Shown here piece after piece: positions 32,082 to 49,368 of a stretch of 64,000 bases of DNA. Below the pieces are notes generated by a model. It ran no database searches and was not told the origin of the DNA. It saw nothing but the letters and a program-made list of their open reading frames with translations. The stretch lies in sequence record NC_010324.1, one strand, 5' to 3'. The stretch is from Escherichia phage phiEco32. The position numbers and the translations under genes were made by a program. The stretch's first letter is position 1. Each line of letters starts with the position of its first letter.

Positions 32082-32900
32082 TTACCAAGATTTATCTAAC
32101 CATGTCCAGTCGAACAGGTCTTCCGGAGTCTGACCAACAAAGAGAAGCCGAGCATTCTCAAGCATCTTCTCTTCATCTTCAGTATCGAACTTCTTATAAT
32201 ATTCCATTCGTACTATATGATACATGGTCCACTTGTCTGTAACACCAGCCAACAACTTAGCTGCTGCTTTCTTCCCTATTCCTTGACGTCGAAGCTGAAG
32301 CTTACCTCCCCACATAACTTCTTTACGTTCTCCACATCCGGGGATATTATCTGTACCATCTCCAACCAGCATCTGATAGAAGAAATTTTGCCATGAAACT
32401 AAATCAGACACGTAGTGAGGAGGAACCTCTTTCTGTCTTTCTCCACAAGCCCAACGATAATGCCATCCGGGAGTTATCAACAAATCTTTGTCTCTAGTAC
32501 AGATGATAGTATTCTTATCTCTGCGTTGCCTTTCGGCTAGTGCATCATCAGCCTCTCTCCCAAATACGTCTATGTATTCATATTTACCTTTAATGTAATC
32601 ACCAACATTTTGCCAGTGAAAAGGTCTTTCTCCGGGAGGTCTATTTGCTTTGTAGTCTTGCTGTTTAGCAACATCAAAACGGAAGTTACCACCTTCGCTG
32701 AAGTAGAACACAACCTTGCTACAACCTGATCGAGCTATGATTGTATCAATCTTATACTGAAGTCGTTCAATCATGAAATTGTAATCAACTGGAACACGTC
32801 CTGTGTCAAGGAAGGGATGCTCCTGAGTAAGAGCACCCACTTCATACCGAAGAACGTCAGCGTCCACTATAGCAACTTCAGGGAGCTTAACTTCTTCCAT
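32082..32900 (-). CDS. 5'-3' exonuclease / flap endonuclease
   Basis: GREADDALAE...ICTRDKDL and H3TH-like LVGDGTDNIPG; start probably an internal Met near 32900 (track start 32924). Confidence 0.75.
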   Translation of the reverse strand: MEEVKLPEVAIVDADVLRYEVGALTQEHPFLDTGRVPVDYNFMIERLQYKIDTIIARSGCSKVVFYFSEGGNFRFDVAKQQDYKANRPPGERPFHWQNVGDYIKGKYEYIDVFGREADDALAERQRRDKNTIICTRDKDLLITPGWHYRWACGERQKEVPPHYVSDLVSWQNFFYQMLVGDGTDNIPGCGERKEVMWGGKLQLRRQGIGKKAAAKLLAGVTDKWTMYHIVRMEYYKKFDTEDEEKMLENARLLFVGQTPEDLFDWTWLDKSW

Positions 32901-33776
32901 AAATATCATCCTGAGCTTGAGCAATAATCCAATCTAGATCTGATACTGCTGATTCAATAGTTGAGTCATTAAACAGTAGATATGTTTTTCTCTGTTCGCC
33001 TTCAATATATGAGCGAGAGTCTCCATCAAAAGAGCAACCATCTCTAAGAACTTGGACAACTTGGACATGGAAATTCTTTTCTAGTTCTCGTACCTCTGCA
33101 TCAAAACCTCCGTCAGTAAACACGACAATATCATCCTGACCTAGCCCTTCTTGTTTGATACTTTTTACAGCAAGATTCCCCATATGATTGTTTCCAAACA
33201 TAGGTTTTAAGAAGTCTTCACTTGTAGAAATCATCAAATCTCTTACAGACTTCCCTCCCCATTCTGGTCTAGGTTTTTCTTTCCATTCACGATCTTCATA
33301 GCGTGCTAGAAAGTTTTCTAGAGGTATTCCTAGTGCAGCAGCAGCTACTCTGTACATTGGCTCCTTGAAGGATTTGGTTGAATATCCATGGTGGTATGAA
33401 TGGGCATTGACCCAAGCATTGGCTATCGTATCTTTACCACAACCCGGAGGCCCATTAAGAATTACTACTAAAGGCTTATAGTGGGAACCTCCCACCATAT
33501 TGGTCAGTGCTGGATTGCCTTGAGATTCCATTTCTAATTGCTCCGTGTGGTCATGTGAGTAGTCTATTGGAGAAGTTTTGTTACCAGTAACTTTAGGTAA
33601 AATCGCTCTAGTTGTTTCTACGTATTTACCGCCATCAATATTGATTTGAAACTCTACAAGCTCATTCTGTAACTCATATCCTGATAAGTTGGATAGCTCC
33701 TCCAACTCATCTCTGACGAAATTTAAATGTTTGATTTTAATTGCAAGAGCTTTCTTTAAAGCTTTTACCTCTTCAT

Positions 33777-33786
<10 letters not shown>
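32887..33786 (-). CDS. P-loop nucleotide kinase (dNMP-kinase-like) with ~110-aa N-terminal coiled-coil extension
   Basis: Walker A VVILNGPPGCGKDT; substrate not inferable from sequence. Confidence 0.6.
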
Positions 33787-44061: not shown

Positions 44062-44243
44062 TTACGCTCTCCAATTTCTTCGTAATGACACTCAGTAGTT
44101 AAGCAATCTTTACAGATTGCTGTATAAACCCTGACGTTAGTAAATCGTTTGTTCTTCCCTTTGGTTGGAGAGCCTTTAGCAAGCTCTCTGATAACCTTGT
44201 TACTTAAATGAAGGTTTGTTCCTTCACATCTAGAGCACTTCAT
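44058..44243 (-). CDS. small zinc-ribbon protein (61 aa)
   Basis: CSRC...CKDC pattern; ORF track. Confidence 0.45.
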   Translation of the reverse strand: MKCSRCEGTNLHLSNKVIRELAKGSPTKGKNKRFTNVRVYTAICKDCLTTECHYEEIGERK

Positions 44244-44559
44244 GGTTCATATCTTTATGAATCCTGTAAACAGCTGTCGCCATACAAGCAACAGCCTCAT
44301 TATGTGGGAGGTGCATTCCTGTAGAACCATCCCAATCTTTGAACTCAGCGTCAAAGACTCCGGTAGGCTCTGGATACAGAGCTTGCAGCTCCACTAGATC
44401 ATTAGCAACTTGTTGCCATTTATCATCAGACCAGATAGGGTCATCCAACCAGTAATACAAATAGGAATGGATGATCAATTGCCTTCTATGCCGATTGATT
44501 ACTTCAGCGGGACTTATCTCACTTCCATTTGAAGTCCTAAATGTATTACTGTCAATCAT
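44230..44559 (-). CDS. hypothetical protein (109 aa)
   Basis: ORF track. Confidence 0.45.
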   Translation of the reverse strand: MIDSNTFRTSNGSEISPAEVINRHRRQLIIHSYLYYWLDDPIWSDDKWQQVANDLVELQALYPEPTGVFDAEFKDWDGSTGMHLPHNEAVACMATAVYRIHKDMNHEVL

Positions 44560-44774
44560 TTCACAACCTTAAATTTGAATGTTGTTGGGTGATAATAGTG
44601 CAACCTGTTAATGGTGTGCTTTGTTTCAAGGTATATCCTGCAAGAGTGACACATGACATGAGTCAAACCGGTTACAGGATTAAACTTAAAGTTGGCGATA
44701 GGCTTCTCTTTCTTACAGAAGCTGCACACTTTATGTGTCATTAGTTCTCCAAAGTTTTCTTCAGAGCTGCCCAT
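44556..44774 (-). CDS. small Cys/His-rich protein (72 aa)
   Basis: CSFC...CHSC pattern; ORF track. Confidence 0.45.
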   Translation of the reverse strand: MGSSEENFGELMTHKVCSFCKKEKPIANFKFNPVTGLTHVMCHSCRIYLETKHTINRLHYYHPTTFKFKVVK

Positions 44775-45397
44775 GAGATTGGGTAGAGTTTAGCCATCTC
44801 TTCATCCAGAGATTTAGCAAACACTCGAACTTCGTATTGAGCGTGAGAGGAGAGTCGCTGACGACACAACTCAAACCAGCCATACAAAGAACCGGTCCAC
44901 ACCCACTCAGTGATCATCCCCTGAGGAAGAACAAATCGAGCTTGCTCTGGTGCAATAAACTCAATCAACTTGTCATATGCTGCTAGAGAAGCTTCATATG
45001 CATCGTTAATCAGTATTAATGCTTCAGCTCGCTCTCCGTCGATGAGTTGAATCCCTGAACCTGCATGGAGGTCCGAAGGTCTCGCAAAAATCTCTTTAGG
45101 GATGAAGACTTCAACTGCTCCATCTTTATACCGCCGGGACATTTCGTTCCACGAGAATCCAACCTGATGCTTGCCCAACTGTCTCGCAATTGCAATAGGT
45201 GCTTTGCATCGGAAACTGACTTGCGGGTGTCGGAATGGGGTAACATGCTTCTCTCTTGCGAGGAAGTTGATGAGACGTTCATCACGTTCATTTAAATCAC
45301 CTTCACGGGTTACGCCAAAGGAAACTCGAGCTGCGTTTACTACGCTACGATCGCTTCCCATAGCTTCGATTAATGTTGCTTGTAGTTGTTCATTCAT
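44741..45397 (-). CDS. thyX: flavin-dependent thymidylate synthase (ThyX)-like protein with divergent signature
   Basis: ThyX-like TPFRH...SFR...QLGKHQVGFSWNEMSRRY; the canonical RHR-x7-S motif reads KHQ here. Confidence 0.65.
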   Translation of the reverse strand: MNEQLQATLIEAMGSDRSVVNAARVSFGVTREGDLNERDERLINFLAREKHVTPFRHPQVSFRCKAPIAIARQLGKHQVGFSWNEMSRRYKDGAVEVFIPKEIFARPSDLHAGSGIQLIDGERAEALILINDAYEASLAAYDKLIEFIAPEQARFVLPQGMITEWVWTGSLYGWFELCRQRLSSHAQYEVRVFAKSLDEEMAKLYPISWAALKKTLEN

Positions 45398-45412: not shown

Positions 45413-45688
45413 TTACTTATTGCTCAGGGCTGTGTCCAAAAATGCTTTCAGGTTTGCTTCAGTCTGCATACCAGAGAGGCTGTAGTGTGCACCACTGTTA
45501 CGGTCAGGCACAACGAAAGCAGGGATGCTTCGTACACCATACTTAACAGCTTGTTCACGACCATCACCTTCAAGGATGTTAATCTCTTCCACTTCTACAT
45601 CAAACTCCTTAACAACCTTCTCAAAGGTAGGAGCCATTGCTTTACATGGAGCACACTGATCACTATAAAACTTAATTACTTTAGACAT
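45413..45688 (-). CDS. thioredoxin-like protein (CAPC active site)
   Basis: YSDQCAPCKAMAPTFE matches the thioredoxin WCxPC...AP pattern; SD AAGGA. Confidence 0.75.
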   Translation of the reverse strand: MSKVIKFYSDQCAPCKAMAPTFEKVVKEFDVEVEEINILEGDGREQAVKYGVRSIPAFVVPDRNSGAHYSLSGMQTEANLKAFLDTALSNK

Positions 45689-47510: not shown

Positions 47511-48044
47511 TTACACACCTTTAGATGCAACCACACCTTCAGAGTTATTATAACGACCCTTCACTGCATAGGAGTGTTCCCCTGCATGAGAGTGCTCAAA
47601 CATGACCATCTGACCAACACGCATACCAGCACGAACTCGTAAGCTATGGTGCTTGGTTACGTTGTGGAATTCAAATGTCAGCTTACTACTATTAAACCCT
47701 GCATCAGCCCATCCAGCGTGGAGATGGTTCAGACCACAACGAGCCATAGATGAACGAAGAACAAACAGACTTGAGATGTTATCTGGAAGGTTAAACTCCT
47801 CCATAGAGTGAGCCAAGAAGAACTGACCCGGAGTGATAACCAAACCCTCTTCAGGAATCTTTACTTCCTTCCACTGAAGATTCTCTTTCGCATCAATATC
47901 AACGATGCCATCAGCCTGTTCTTCAACAAGGATAGTATCACCAATACGGATATCCACACTAGCAGCGTTAACATACTTATGCTCCGCATCCAGATAGCCA
48001 TTGTCAATTACATTGTGCAGTTCAATACTTCCTAGTAAACCCAT
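47511..48044 (-). CDS. dCTP deaminase / dUTPase-superfamily protein
   Basis: ASVDIRIGD and VLRSSMARCG motifs typical of dCTP deaminase family. Confidence 0.65.
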   Translation of the reverse strand: MGLLGSIELHNVIDNGYLDAEHKYVNAASVDIRIGDTILVEEQADGIVDIDAKENLQWKEVKIPEEGLVITPGQFFLAHSMEEFNLPDNISSLFVLRSSMARCGLNHLHAGWADAGFNSSKLTFEFHNVTKHHSLRVRAGMRVGQMVMFEHSHAGEHSYAVKGRYNNSEGVVASKGV

Positions 48045-48053
48045 TCTTATTCC

Positions 48054-49367
48054 TTAGTTATTTTCGTCTATTTCAAAAGAGATTCCACGACCCGCTTCAT
48101 CGGCAAACCGAACTGTACGGGTTTGAGGTTCTAATACTTCAGGGTTGTTGGCAATAAAGCGATCAGCGAGATTATCTACCACATCTTGGGCCACACCTTC
48201 ATCAGTCCACACAGCCCTAACAGGTGCGTTGATATCACCAACAGCAAAACCCTGACCAGAGAACTGGTGACGGCTAACAGTCAAACCGTTTGGTCGACCA
48301 CGAGAAGGACTAGCCATCCATCGCTCCATAGAATCACTTGTAATACCCCAAGCTTCTTCAAAAGATGTTCTACGAGTAGGGCTTACTCTTCGTGACTCTT
48401 GTGCTCTACGCATTGCAGGGGCTACAAACACCCCTTCAATTGCATTATGTCGGTTAGGTTCCTCTTCTCGACCAAGCAGATCACCACCCGTGTTAGTTGT
48501 TAAATTTGTCAACCCTTCAGACCAATACGCATGAATCTGACCAGAACCGTGAAGACTAGACATAATCTGAATCTCTTCATAAGGGATTCCAAAGAATCGA
48601 CTCATGTCTCGGTCAACACAATACGAGGGACTTGTCGTATCCTCAGCATAAGTAACCTGACCCCGTTCATCAACCAGATGATTAATCGGTTGAGGTGTAG
48701 GGAGGTACCGAGAGTGGGCCATATATTGGAGCGCAGCGGATGTAGAGGAGAATCTCAACACCTGTGAATTAGGCCACTTCTTATGAACATACTTAATTTC
48801 ACGAGCAGAGACAACTACTGGACAAGGAGAAGTCATAGACAGATATCCATGAGGGGTCATAAATAGATTGTCAAGAGTCATCGCACCACGGCACATCATA
48901 GGAAAATTATCCATAACCTCTTCAATAGAAGTAGGATAATTAAACATGAATTGGATTCGAACCCCATTCCACTGAAATTCAATAATATCAGTGAATGTTA
49001 ACAAAGAGCCTTCAGCGTAGGCTTCATTTGTGGCTTCAGCCAGAAGGGAAGAGTACTCAATATCTTGAGACTCAAGCCACTCTTTCACGTTACTTTCAAC
49101 CTCTCGTCCGAGATCTTGCCACTGGTCATGGCGGATAAAGGTATCTCGAGTTCTTGGTGCCTGTCCTCTGACAATAAAGATATCAATGTCATGAGGTGCT
49201 CTATTATTAAGAACAGCATCACGAACAGCCCCACCAGTGATGATGGGACAAATACAGTCTGGAATCAAGTTGTTGTTAATCAACTGTTCAATGAAGTGAC
49301 GACCAACAGTGATATCAGGTTGTTGAGCAACCTTATCTTCAATTCGGTTAATCGGGATAACAATCAT
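48054..49367 (-). CDS. nucleotidyltransferase (pol-beta superfamily, CCA-adding / poly(A) polymerase-like head)
   Basis: IITGGAVRDAVLNN...PHDIDIFI matches the GGAVRD plus DxD head-domain signature; start at Met 20 of the track ORF, just after the exonuclease stop. Confidence 0.55.
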   Translation of the reverse strand: MIVIPINRIEDKVAQQPDITVGRHFIEQLINNNLIPDCICPIITGGAVRDAVLNNRAPHDIDIFIVRGQAPRTRDTFIRHDQWQDLGREVESNVKEWLESQDIEYSSLLAEATNEAYAEGSLLTFTDIIEFQWNGVRIQFMFNYPTSIEEVMDNFPMMCRGAMTLDNLFMTPHGYLSMTSPCPVVVSAREIKYVHKKWPNSQVLRFSSTSAALQYMAHSRYLPTPQPINHLVDERGQVTYAEDTTSPSYCVDRDMSRFFGIPYEEIQIMSSLHGSGQIHAYWSEGLTNLTTNTGGDLLGREEEPNRHNAIEGVFVAPAMRRAQESRRVSPTRRTSFEEAWGITSDSMERWMASPSRGRPNGLTVSRHQFSGQGFAVGDINAPVRAVWTDEGVAQDVVDNLADRFIANNPEVLEPQTRTVRFADEAGRGISFEIDENN

Positions 49368-49368
49368 T

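What the first reader, a model, noticed from the sequence alone, without database searches (positions are those of the whole stretch)
44741..45397. ThyX homolog with the RHR signature changed to KHQ
Seen in sequence: the fold-defining region aligns with ThyX (TPFRH...SFR...EMSRRY) but the conserved Arg-His-Arg that contacts the dUMP phosphate reads Lys-His-Gln. Inference: either a tolerated variant or an enzyme with altered substrate or chemistry, which would fit a DNA-modification role for the nearby ligase cluster.
Basis: partly seen in the sequence, partly recalled or inferred. Interest (0 to 1): 0.5.

Follow-up and report, generated by a model that had tools for sequence, protein, structure and literature searches.

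The report
Phage ThyX with variant signature motif
This is an ordinary-looking phage gene for flavin-dependent thymidylate synthase (ThyX) from a large, untested phage branch of the family that writes the classic Arg-His-Arg signature as Lys-His-Gln; it most likely still makes dTMP.

Summary
ORF 44741-45397 (minus strand, 218 aa) is a clear ThyX (Pfam Thy1 2e-43, TIGR02170 above cut-off, AF2 model TM 0.82-0.84 to T. maritima ThyX). The R78-H79-R80 signature reads K76-H77-Q78, followed by 8 rather than 7 residues before the Ser.

The window is a Kuravirus (phiEco32/SU10-like E. coli podophage), and the change is not private to it. All 115 homologues in which the motif could be located (of the 120 best, down to 54% identity) read KHQ. 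Across 161 sequences of the surrounding phage clade the pattern is [K/R]-[H/S/Y]-x, with the third position free, and canonical S-G-R-Y is replaced by S-R-R-Y. The residues for dUMP, folate and catalysis are essentially invariant, and synonymous codon changes show purifying selection. Other phage ThyX groups keep RHR.

Clade members sit beside RNR, dUTPase, dCTP deaminase and replication genes. The "ligase cluster" occurs complete in a Pseudomonas Bruynoghevirus that has no ThyX.

Best reading (about 0.8): a working dTMP synthase with rewired flavin and phosphate contacts, feeding dTTP to an AT-rich phage. Altered chemistry is not excluded. No clade member has been assayed, and these phages resist restriction for unknown reasons.

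The parts
44741..45397 (-). ThyX-family (flavin-dependent thymidylate synthase) CDS, 218 aa
   Evidence: ORF list. Pfam Thy1 2e-43. TIGR02170 127 bits. phrog_85 5e-63. AF2 pLDDT 94.9 and TM 0.82-0.84 to T. maritima ThyX. 97-99.5% identical to genes annotated as thyX in Kuravirus genomes.
45164..45172 (-). Codons K76-H77-Q78 (AAG CAT CAG), the variant of the R78-H79-R80 ThyX signature
   Evidence: Alignment to 1kq4 and 6j61. Codons read from the sequence. KHQ in 115 of the 115 close homologues where the motif was located, out of 120 listed.
45128..45139 (-). Codons S87-R88-R89-Y90 (TCC CGG CGG TAT). This is the clade-specific S-R-R-Y in place of canonical S-G/Q-R-Y. R88 is the proposed substitute phosphate-binding arginine.
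   Evidence: Position 89 (T. maritima numbering) is R in 153 of 161 clade sequences. It is G, Q or A in all 11 canonical RHR sequences examined.
47511..48044 (-). dCTP deaminase, the inferred upstream step (dCTP to dUTP/dUMP) of the same dTTP-supply route
   Evidence: Pfam DCD 4e-34. Annotated as dCTP deaminase in Bas90 and in phage 7-11. Its pathway role is inferred.
45413..45688 (-). Thioredoxin-like gene (91 aa, CAPC motif) immediately upstream of thyX in the same orientation
   Evidence: ORF translation. Annotated as 'thioredoxin domain' in Bas90 and as thioredoxin in phage 7-11. A functional link to ThyX is not shown.
32887..33786 (-). Deoxynucleoside monophosphate kinase, the inferred downstream step (dTMP to dTDP)
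   Evidence: phrog_139 3e-56. Bas90 annotation. Its pathway role is inferred.

Best explanation
The gene encodes a functional flavin-dependent thymidylate synthase (dUMP + CH2-THF + NADPH -> dTMP + THF) from a phage-specific ThyX subfamily. In this subfamily the classical RHR-X7-S signature has become [K/R]-[H]-x-X8-S and the following S-G-R-Y has become S-R-R-Y.

Shown: the family, the fold, the motif change, its clade-wide distribution, and the conservation of the rest of the active site.

Inferred: Lys76 takes over the Arg78 role, providing positive charge at flavin N1/C2=O and a contact to dUMP. Gln78 gives only a weak H-bond where Arg80 bound a phosphate. The new Arg88, from the neighbouring subunit's S-R-R-Y loop, supplies the lost phosphate contact. 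Together with the phage dCTP deaminase, the phage dNMP kinase and host dUTPase, the enzyme shifts the deoxypyrimidine pool towards dTTP. This would suit a 42.5% G+C genome replicating in a host of about 51% G+C (host figure from general knowledge), and it needs no dihydrofolate reductase.
For: Family scores are above the curated cut-offs. The ThyX fold is predicted with pLDDT 94.9 and TM 0.82-0.84.

Across 161 clade sequences, in T. maritima numbering, conservation is: H53 158, H59 154, R74 143, Q75 153, E86 159, S88 160, R90 159, Y91 159, E144 160, R147 161, R174 161, Q180 160. Position 78 is K in 131 and R in 29, so it is always basic but for one. Position 80 is Q90, K19, T19, V8, H6, R5 and others, so it is not needed as Arg.

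Synonymous codon variation at K, H, Q and at S, R, R, Y across phage families, with the amino acids unchanged, shows purifying selection.

Position 89 is Arg in 153 of 161 clade members. In the 3 members with Met there, position 87 is Arg. All 11 canonical RHR sequences have G, Q or A at position 89. The side chain of residue 89 can reach the dUMP phosphate pocket in PBCV-1 ThyX (PMC3498832).

The gene contexts are those of dNTP supply and replication. Next to clade members sit: dCTP deaminase and thioredoxin here; RNR classes I and III, glutaredoxin, NT5C and MazG; NrdD, dUTPase, primase-helicase and PolA; primase/helicase and PolA in Chaseviridae.

Inteins interrupt clade members at this motif, which is typical of indispensable active sites. 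No ThyA homologue is present in the window.
Against: I found no biochemical or genetic test of any KHQ/SRRY-type ThyX. No solved structure comes from this clade. The only phage ThyX I recall as experimentally validated, L5 gp48, has a canonical RHR.

R78 and R80 are described as conserved dUMP and FAD contacts, so losing them could change affinity or chemistry.

Gordonclarkvirinae are reported to be remarkably resistant to restriction with no known modification pathway (PMC11990801). This leaves room for an unknown pyrimidine modification.

The Arg80-to-Arg89 'relocation' rests on a clade-level co-change confounded by phylogeny. Intermediates exist: RHR/SRRY in P0249 and KHQ/SGRY in P0247 and P0257. 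I could not measure geometry across subunits.
Confidence: 0.8

Rival explanations
1. Neofunctionalised ThyX. The enzyme uses the flavin-iminium chemistry to make a C5-modified pyrimidine nucleotide other than dTMP (for example 5-hydroxymethyl-dUMP by hydration of the exocyclic methylene intermediate), or acts on another nucleotide. This would feed an unrecognised DNA modification that explains the restriction resistance of these phages, possibly elaborated by the amidoligase, ATP-grasp and GATase cluster.
For: The classical signature is not met. No clade member has been assayed. Gordonclarkvirinae resist RM systems although the window carries 35 EcoRV, 12 EcoRI and 9 EcoKI sites. The exocyclic-methylene intermediate of ThyX is chemically open to nucleophiles (PMC8989533 discussion). 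A ThyX paralogue, PolB, has already diverged in substrate use. Bacillus phage SP-15, which has hypermodified thymine, carries a variant-motif ThyX.
Against: The same KHQ/SRRY enzyme is found in many unrelated phages beside RNR, dUTPase and replication genes, with no ligase gene seen in the 8-10 kb examined on each side. The full ligase cluster exists without ThyX in Bruynoghevirus Ab22, and amidoligase homologues occur in 112 Pseudomonas phage records. The residues for uracil recognition, folate binding and the Tyr lid are invariant. The third motif position drifts freely (Q, K, T, V, H, E, M), which does not look like a newly specified catalytic residue. Strong avoidance of CCWGG, GGATCC, CTGCAG, GAGCTC and GATC shows the DNA has been exposed to restriction over evolutionary time.
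Confidence: 0.1
2. A genuine thymidylate synthase whose motif change reflects different flavin handling rather than relocated phosphate binding. For example, FAD could be bound loosely and exchanged as a co-substrate, or FMN used, because two FAD-phosphate contacts (R80 and R165) are absent.
For: The RHR motif and the residue equivalent to T. maritima R165 are described as H-bonding the FAD phosphates. In the clade, position 80 is rarely Arg, and position 165 is Y, A, L, M or F.
Against: T. thermophilus ThyX, a canonical enzyme, also lacks Arg at position 165 (alignment). Nothing in sequence alone distinguishes FAD from FMN use. I had no model with ligand.
Confidence: 0.07
3. A catalytically dead ThyX relic, or a nucleotide-binding regulator.
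For: Only the departure from the textbook signature.
Against: The catalytic residues are near-invariant across about 160 clusters at 50% identity, with synonymous-only variation at the motif codons. The gene is retained in 1499 phage records. Inteins are retained in-frame at the site.
Confidence: 0.03

Closest known systems
Thermotoga maritima / Thermus thermophilus ThyX (PDB 1O26, 8REO, 6J61), canonical bacterial flavin-dependent thymidylate synthases
   Same: Same fold (TM 0.82-0.84) and 31-34% identity. Same H53, R74, Q75, E86, S88, R90, Y91, E144, R147, R174.
   Different: R78 is K, R80 is Q, there is one extra residue between the motif and the Ser, G89 is R, and R165 is Y. No C-terminal extension like that of the Thermus enzyme.
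PBCV-1 A674R, the biochemically characterised viral ThyX (PDB 2CFA, 4FZB)
   Same: A virus-encoded ThyX used to raise dTTP for an AT-rich genome in a GC-rich host (PMC10142491 abstract).
   Different: Much more distant in sequence (E=2e-7 against 3e-31 for Thermus). It has Ser-Gln-Arg at positions 88-90 rather than S-R-R. I could not read its residues at positions 78-80.
Mycobacteriophage L5 gp48 and other canonical phage ThyX (cyanophages, haloviruses, Pseudomonas phage JG054, Rhodobacter phage RcCWillis)
   Same: Phage-borne ThyX next to RNR, ligase or dCTP deaminase genes.
   Different: These keep RHR with S-[G/Q/A]-R-Y. The window's protein belongs to the separate [K/R]-H-x / S-R-R-Y clade.
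PolB, the Streptomyces ThyX paralogue that methylates UMP and dUMP in polyoxin biosynthesis (PDB 4P5A)
   Same: A ThyX-fold enzyme and a precedent that the family can change substrate preference.
   Different: A weaker match (E=2.5e-16). PolB sits in an antibiotic gene cluster, whereas this gene sits among phage replication and dNTP genes.

Membership tests
ThyX / flavin-dependent thymidylate synthase (Pfam PF02511, TIGR02170) | Profile-HMM score above the curated family cut-off | tested here: met
   Pfam 148.7 bits against 24.8. TIGR02170 equivalog 127.3 bits against 87.9.
ThyX / flavin-dependent thymidylate synthase (Pfam PF02511, TIGR02170) | [quoted passage not shown] | tested here: met
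   AF2 pLDDT 94.9. Foldseek top 50 hits are all ThyX, TM 0.79-0.84 to T. maritima chains.
ThyX / flavin-dependent thymidylate synthase (Pfam PF02511, TIGR02170) | Signature motif R-H-R-X7(-8)-S | tested here: not met
   The motif reads K-H-Q-X8-S. His and Ser are kept, the first Arg is conservatively Lys, and the third Arg is Gln.
ThyX / flavin-dependent thymidylate synthase (Pfam PF02511, TIGR02170) | dUMP-binding and activating residues (R74, Q75, S88, R90, Y91 lid, R147, R174) and folate-stacking His53 | tested here: met
   All are present in the query and are 143-161 of 161 conserved in the clade.
ThyX / flavin-dependent thymidylate synthase (Pfam PF02511, TIGR02170) | Homotetramer with active sites at three-subunit interfaces and bound FAD | not testable with these tools
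   Only a monomer model without ligands or coordinates was available.
ThyX / flavin-dependent thymidylate synthase (Pfam PF02511, TIGR02170) | Catalysis of dUMP to dTMP; complementation of thyA | not testable with these tools
   I found no published assay of a KHQ/SRRY-type enzyme.
Known thymidine-hypermodification pathways (ThyA-type dUMP hydroxymethylase + 5-HMUDK + transferases) | ThyA-superfamily dUMP 5-hydroxymethyltransferase | tested here: not met
The pathway definition is from PMC8989533.
Known thymidine-hypermodification pathways (ThyA-type dUMP hydroxymethylase + 5-HMUDK + transferases) | 5-hmdU DNA kinase and post-replicative transferases | not tested
   I did not search for them. 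[quoted passage not shown]
PolB-type UMP/dUMP C5-methylase | Closest similarity to PolB and location in a nucleoside-antibiotic cluster | tested here: not met
   PolB (4p5a) scores far below Thermus and Thermotoga ThyX. The neighbours are phage replication and dNTP genes.

The most novel reading that the evidence does not exclude
The [K/R]-H-x / S-R-R-Y phage ThyX clade, or at least its Gordonclarkvirinae members, does not stop at dTMP. It releases a different C5-substituted deoxyuridylate (for example 5-hydroxymethyl-dUMP, from water capture of the exocyclic methylene intermediate). This would seed an undescribed thymidine modification that accounts for the unexplained restriction resistance of these phages. 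It would be the first flavin-dependent, ThyX-based entry point into DNA hypermodification.
Probability: 0.07. Interest if true: 0.8.

Novelty: new variant of a known kind. Interest (0 to 1): 0.27.

Why it matters
The textbook RHR-X7-S signature has been used to define ThyX and even to filter ThyX data sets (PMC2826268). Here a large phage clade ignores it: 343 clusters at 50% identity score below E=1e-30 against this protein. The clade includes common coliphage groups used in phage therapy.

If the enzyme is active, it shows which ThyX contacts are dispensable and suggests that a phosphate-binding arginine moved between subunits. That matters for ThyX inhibitor design and for annotating viral metabolic genes. 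A working thymidylate synthase also argues against the published suggestion that Gordonclarkvirinae carry dU instead of T. If the enzyme is not a plain dTMP synthase, it becomes a lead to the unexplained restriction resistance of these phages.

Tried and rejected
Papers not held. I tried to read the M. tuberculosis ThyX mutagenesis paper (Ulmer 2008, PMC2258874), the Trichodesmium 'distinctive ThyX motifs' paper (PMC515151), the folate-site paper (PMC3465422), Stull 2016 (PMC5939375) and the phiEco32 genome paper (PMC2587145). None is held. So I could not learn whether R-to-K or R-to-Q substitutions at the motif have been tested.

Literature searches. Searches for an assay of a phage KHQ-type ThyX, for ThyX linked to hypermodification, and for nucleoside analysis of Kuravirus DNA found nothing relevant. 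The SU10 paper mentions neither thymidylate synthase nor restriction. The cap on papers was reached before I could read the Carin-5 paper.

L5 gp48 as a functional precedent for a non-RHR motif: rejected, because it has a canonical RHR.

Testing whether Arg88 reaches the dUMP phosphate in 3D: not possible. The structure tool returns no coordinates and models only a monomer.

Explaining the reported RM resistance by site avoidance: only partly possible. CCWGG, BamHI, PstI and SacI sites are purged, but EcoRV, EcoRI and EcoKI sites are plentiful.

A scan of bacterial genomes for a KHQ-type ThyX as the sole thymidylate synthase: considered and not run. Absence of thyA elsewhere in a genome cannot be checked from 20-kb loci.

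Full report
**What is there**

The window is a Kuravirus/Gordonclarkvirinae genome, that is, a phiEco32/SU10-like prolate E. coli podophage. A 10-kb stretch around the finding is 92-95% identical to many such phages. The protein of ORF 44741..45397 (minus strand, 218 aa) is 97-99.5% identical to genes annotated as thyX in SU10, Paul, KBNP1711, Bas90 and others.

The ORF scores 148.7 bits on Pfam Thy1 against a cut-off of 24.8 and 127.3 bits on the TIGR02170 thyX equivalog model against a cut-off of 87.9. An AlphaFold2 model built on 110 homologues has pLDDT 94.9. Its 50 best PDB matches are all ThyX, with TM 0.79-0.84 to the T. maritima enzyme.

**The observation**

Pairwise HMMER alignments to T. 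maritima and T. thermophilus ThyX put ARQLGKHQVGFSWNEMSRRY under ARQWFRHRIA-SYNELSGRY. PDB chain numbers carry a 12-residue tag, so native numbering applies: R78 becomes K76, H79 stays H77, and R80 becomes Q78. One extra residue follows, giving X8 instead of X7 before the Ser. G89 becomes R88. The codons are AAG CAT CAG at 45172-45164.

Its gloss that RHR 'contacts the dUMP phosphate' is only part of the picture.
- The FDTS review states that RHR H-bonds the AMP phosphate, ribityl and FMN phosphate of FAD. It also states that the first Arg H-bonds the isoalloxazine and helps hold dUMP.
- A 2025 structure paper shows the R78 guanidinium facing N1/C2=O of FADH-.
- One paper lists R78, R80, S88 and R90 as direct H-bond partners of dUMP.

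**How widespread is KHQ**

- Of the 120 best homologues at 90% clustering, down to 54% identity, the motif could be located in 115, and all 115 read KHQ-x-G-x-S-W-N-E-x-S-R-R-Y.
- An exhaustive HMMER scan of 1.84 billion cluster representatives found 6901 relatives, 343 of them below E=1e-30.
- I aligned the top 150 representatives, ten phage proteins fetched from GenBank records and the query (161 sequences in all). Position 78 is K in 131 and R in 29. Position 79 is H in 141, S in 16 and Y in 3. Position 80 is Q90, K19, T19, V8, H6, R5, E4, M3 and others.
- The clade includes Kuravirus, Moazamivirus (Salmonella phage 7-11), Chaseviridae (Mangalitsa), Vibrio phages Thalassa and Phriendly, Zobellviridae roseophages (KHK), Barbavirus and Lauvirus (KHK), and Bacillus and Streptomyces phages (K-Y-x).
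- Other phage ThyX groups keep a canonical RHR: Pseudomonas phage JG054, cyanophages KBS-P-1A and S-CAM1, halovirus HJTV-2, mycobacteriophages Tonenili and L5, Streptomyces phage Success, and Rhodobacter phage RcCWillis.

KHQ is therefore lineage-specific. The lineage is a large phage subfamily, not this phage alone.

**Is the active site otherwise intact**

Yes. Across the 161 sequences, in T. maritima numbering, the counts are: H53 158, H59 154, R74 143, Q75 153, E86 159, S88 160, R90 159, Y91 159, E144 160, R147 161, R174 161, Q180 160. These cover uracil recognition and activation (R90, R174), phosphate and sugar binding (R74, Q75, R147, S88), the Tyr lid and the folate-stacking His (roles).

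The codons for K, H, Q and for S, R, R, Y differ synonymously between Kuravirus, Moazamivirus, Chaseviridae, Vibrio phages and one of the two metagenomic contigs, while the amino acids stay the same. That indicates purifying selection. Several clade members carry inteins inserted right at this motif, for example KHQSGF|CLTGDT. This is what one expects at an indispensable catalytic site.

**A second clade signature**

Canonical S-G-R-Y (S-Q-R-Y in L5 and in PBCV-1) is S-R-R-Y in 153 of 161 clade members. In the three members with Met at position 89, position 87 is Arg. All eleven canonical RHR sequences I looked at have G, Q or A at position 89. In PBCV-1 ThyX the Gln-89 side chain can occupy the dUMP phosphate pocket.

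From this I infer, but have not shown, that the phosphate-binding arginine lost at position 80 is supplied by Arg at position 89 from the adjoining subunit. Caveats apply:
- The association is largely one clade-level event.
- Intermediates exist (RHR/SRRY, KHQ/SGRY).
- I could not measure cross-subunit geometry.

**Context**

In this phage the gene lies in the minus-strand early/middle operon among replication and nucleotide genes. These are:
- PhoH;
- thioredoxin, immediately upstream of thyX;
- a Dps-like DNA-binding protein;
- dCTP deaminase (Pfam DCD 4e-34);
- the split PolA;
- primase/helicase;
- dNMP kinase.

Elsewhere KHQ-type genes sit next to primase/helicase and PolA (Mangalitsa). 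They also sit next to NT5C, class I and III RNR, glutaredoxin and MazG (metagenomic L013), and next to NrdD, PolA, ligase and dUTPase (L014). These are dNTP-supply neighbourhoods.

The window is 42.5% G+C. The route dCTP deaminase, then (host) dUTPase, then ThyX, then dNMP kinase is the standard way to turn dCTP into dTTP (textbook E. coli pathway). No ThyA homologue is present in the window.

**The ligase cluster**

The cluster at 51930-59136 contains GGCT, an ATP-grasp protein, a GATase, Amidoligase_2, phrog_4877 and a phiEco32-type COOH-NH2 ligase. It lies 6.5 kb or more from thyX.

The same cluster, in the same order and also upstream of primase/helicase and the exonuclease subunit, is present in Pseudomonas Bruynoghevirus Ab22. 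Neither tblastn nor a clade HMM finds a ThyX in that genome. Amidoligase homologues occur in 112 Pseudomonas phage records, and the paper on phage tf lists them without any thymidylate synthase. KHQ-ThyX phages such as Mangalitsa, L013 and L014 show no ligase gene in the 8-10 kb examined on each side of thyX; I did not scan their whole genomes.

**What remains open**

I found no assay, complementation test or structure for any enzyme of this clade. [quoted passage not shown] From the dCTP deaminase and a 'nucleotidyltransferase' they speculate about dU-DNA.

The window contains 35 EcoRV, 12 EcoRI and 9 EcoKI sites. It has almost no CCWGG (3 against about 103 expected), BamHI, PstI, SacI, NcoI or KpnI sites, and half the expected GATC. 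Site avoidance therefore explains some of the resistance but not all.

A conserved, apparently competent thymidylate synthase argues against wholesale dU substitution. It does not rule out a partial or novel thymidine modification. ThyX chemistry passes through an exocyclic methylene that nucleophiles could in principle capture. I put that reading at about 7-10%.

**Verdict**

The most likely explanation, at about 0.8, is an ordinary function (dTMP synthesis) carried out by an uncharacterised phage subfamily of ThyX with a relaxed and rewired signature. I rate the interest as modest. It corrects the idea that RHR is universal in ThyX, gives a testable compensation hypothesis, and touches an open question about Kuravirus restriction resistance. 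Nothing in the evidence requires new chemistry.

Noticed in passing
homologues P0122, P0189, P0204 (no window coordinates); the equivalent site in the window is about 45150-45172: Some clade members are split by inteins inserted exactly at or just after the variant motif (KHQSGF|CLTGDTQV, RHVVGT|CVTGDTEV, GVINE|CFSDDT). Many other long homologues (300-640 aa) suggest further insertions or fusions.
   Followed up: partly
window 1-64000: Restriction-site census is strongly uneven. CCWGG 3 against about 103 expected; BamHI, PstI and SacI 0; NcoI 1; KpnI 2; GATC 135 against 298. EcoRV (35), EcoRI (12), EcoKI (9), SspI and DraI are at or above expectation, although these phages are reported to resist EcoRI-, EcoRV- and EcoKI-type systems. 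The purged six-base sites have one T per strand and the tolerated ones have two or three. Unexplained.
   Followed up: partly
window 51930-59136 (-); L015 8491-16772: The GGCT / ATP-grasp / GATase / Amidoligase_2 / phrog_4877 / COOH-NH2-ligase cluster is syntenic with ORF21-27 of Pseudomonas Bruynoghevirus Ab22. In both it lies directly upstream of primase/helicase and the separate PolA exonuclease subunit. Its function is unknown. Its fixed position beside the replication genes in two distant podophage groups is notable.
   Followed up: partly
window 48054-49424 (-): A 456-aa protein between dCTP deaminase and the PolA exonuclease subunit has no Pfam hit. It matches only phrog_12715 'nucleotidyltransferase'. 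It is one of the two genes that led the BASEL authors to suspect a DNA modification.
   Followed up: no
window 44230-44559 (-): A 109-aa ORF hits phrog_6466 'DNA ligase'. By eye (YLYYWLDDPIWSDDKWQQVANDLVELQ) it resembles a stand-alone domain Ia of NAD-dependent ligase LigA. It is too short to be a ligase and could be a modulator of host LigA.
   Followed up: no
L023 132-968 (Bacillus phage SP-15): SP-15, a phage known for hypermodified thymine, carries a ThyX with K-Y-R plus S-R-R-Y and an insertion of about 45 residues between them, next to a deoxynucleoside/thymidylate kinase gene.
   Followed up: no
window 44556-44774 (-) and 44741-45397 (-): The next ORF downstream (72 aa, Cys-rich: CSFCKK...CHSCR) starts 34 nt inside the 3' end of thyX. 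In Bas90 the gene annotated after thyX is an 82-aa hypothetical protein with no overlap, so the true start here may be an internal ATG.
   Followed up: no
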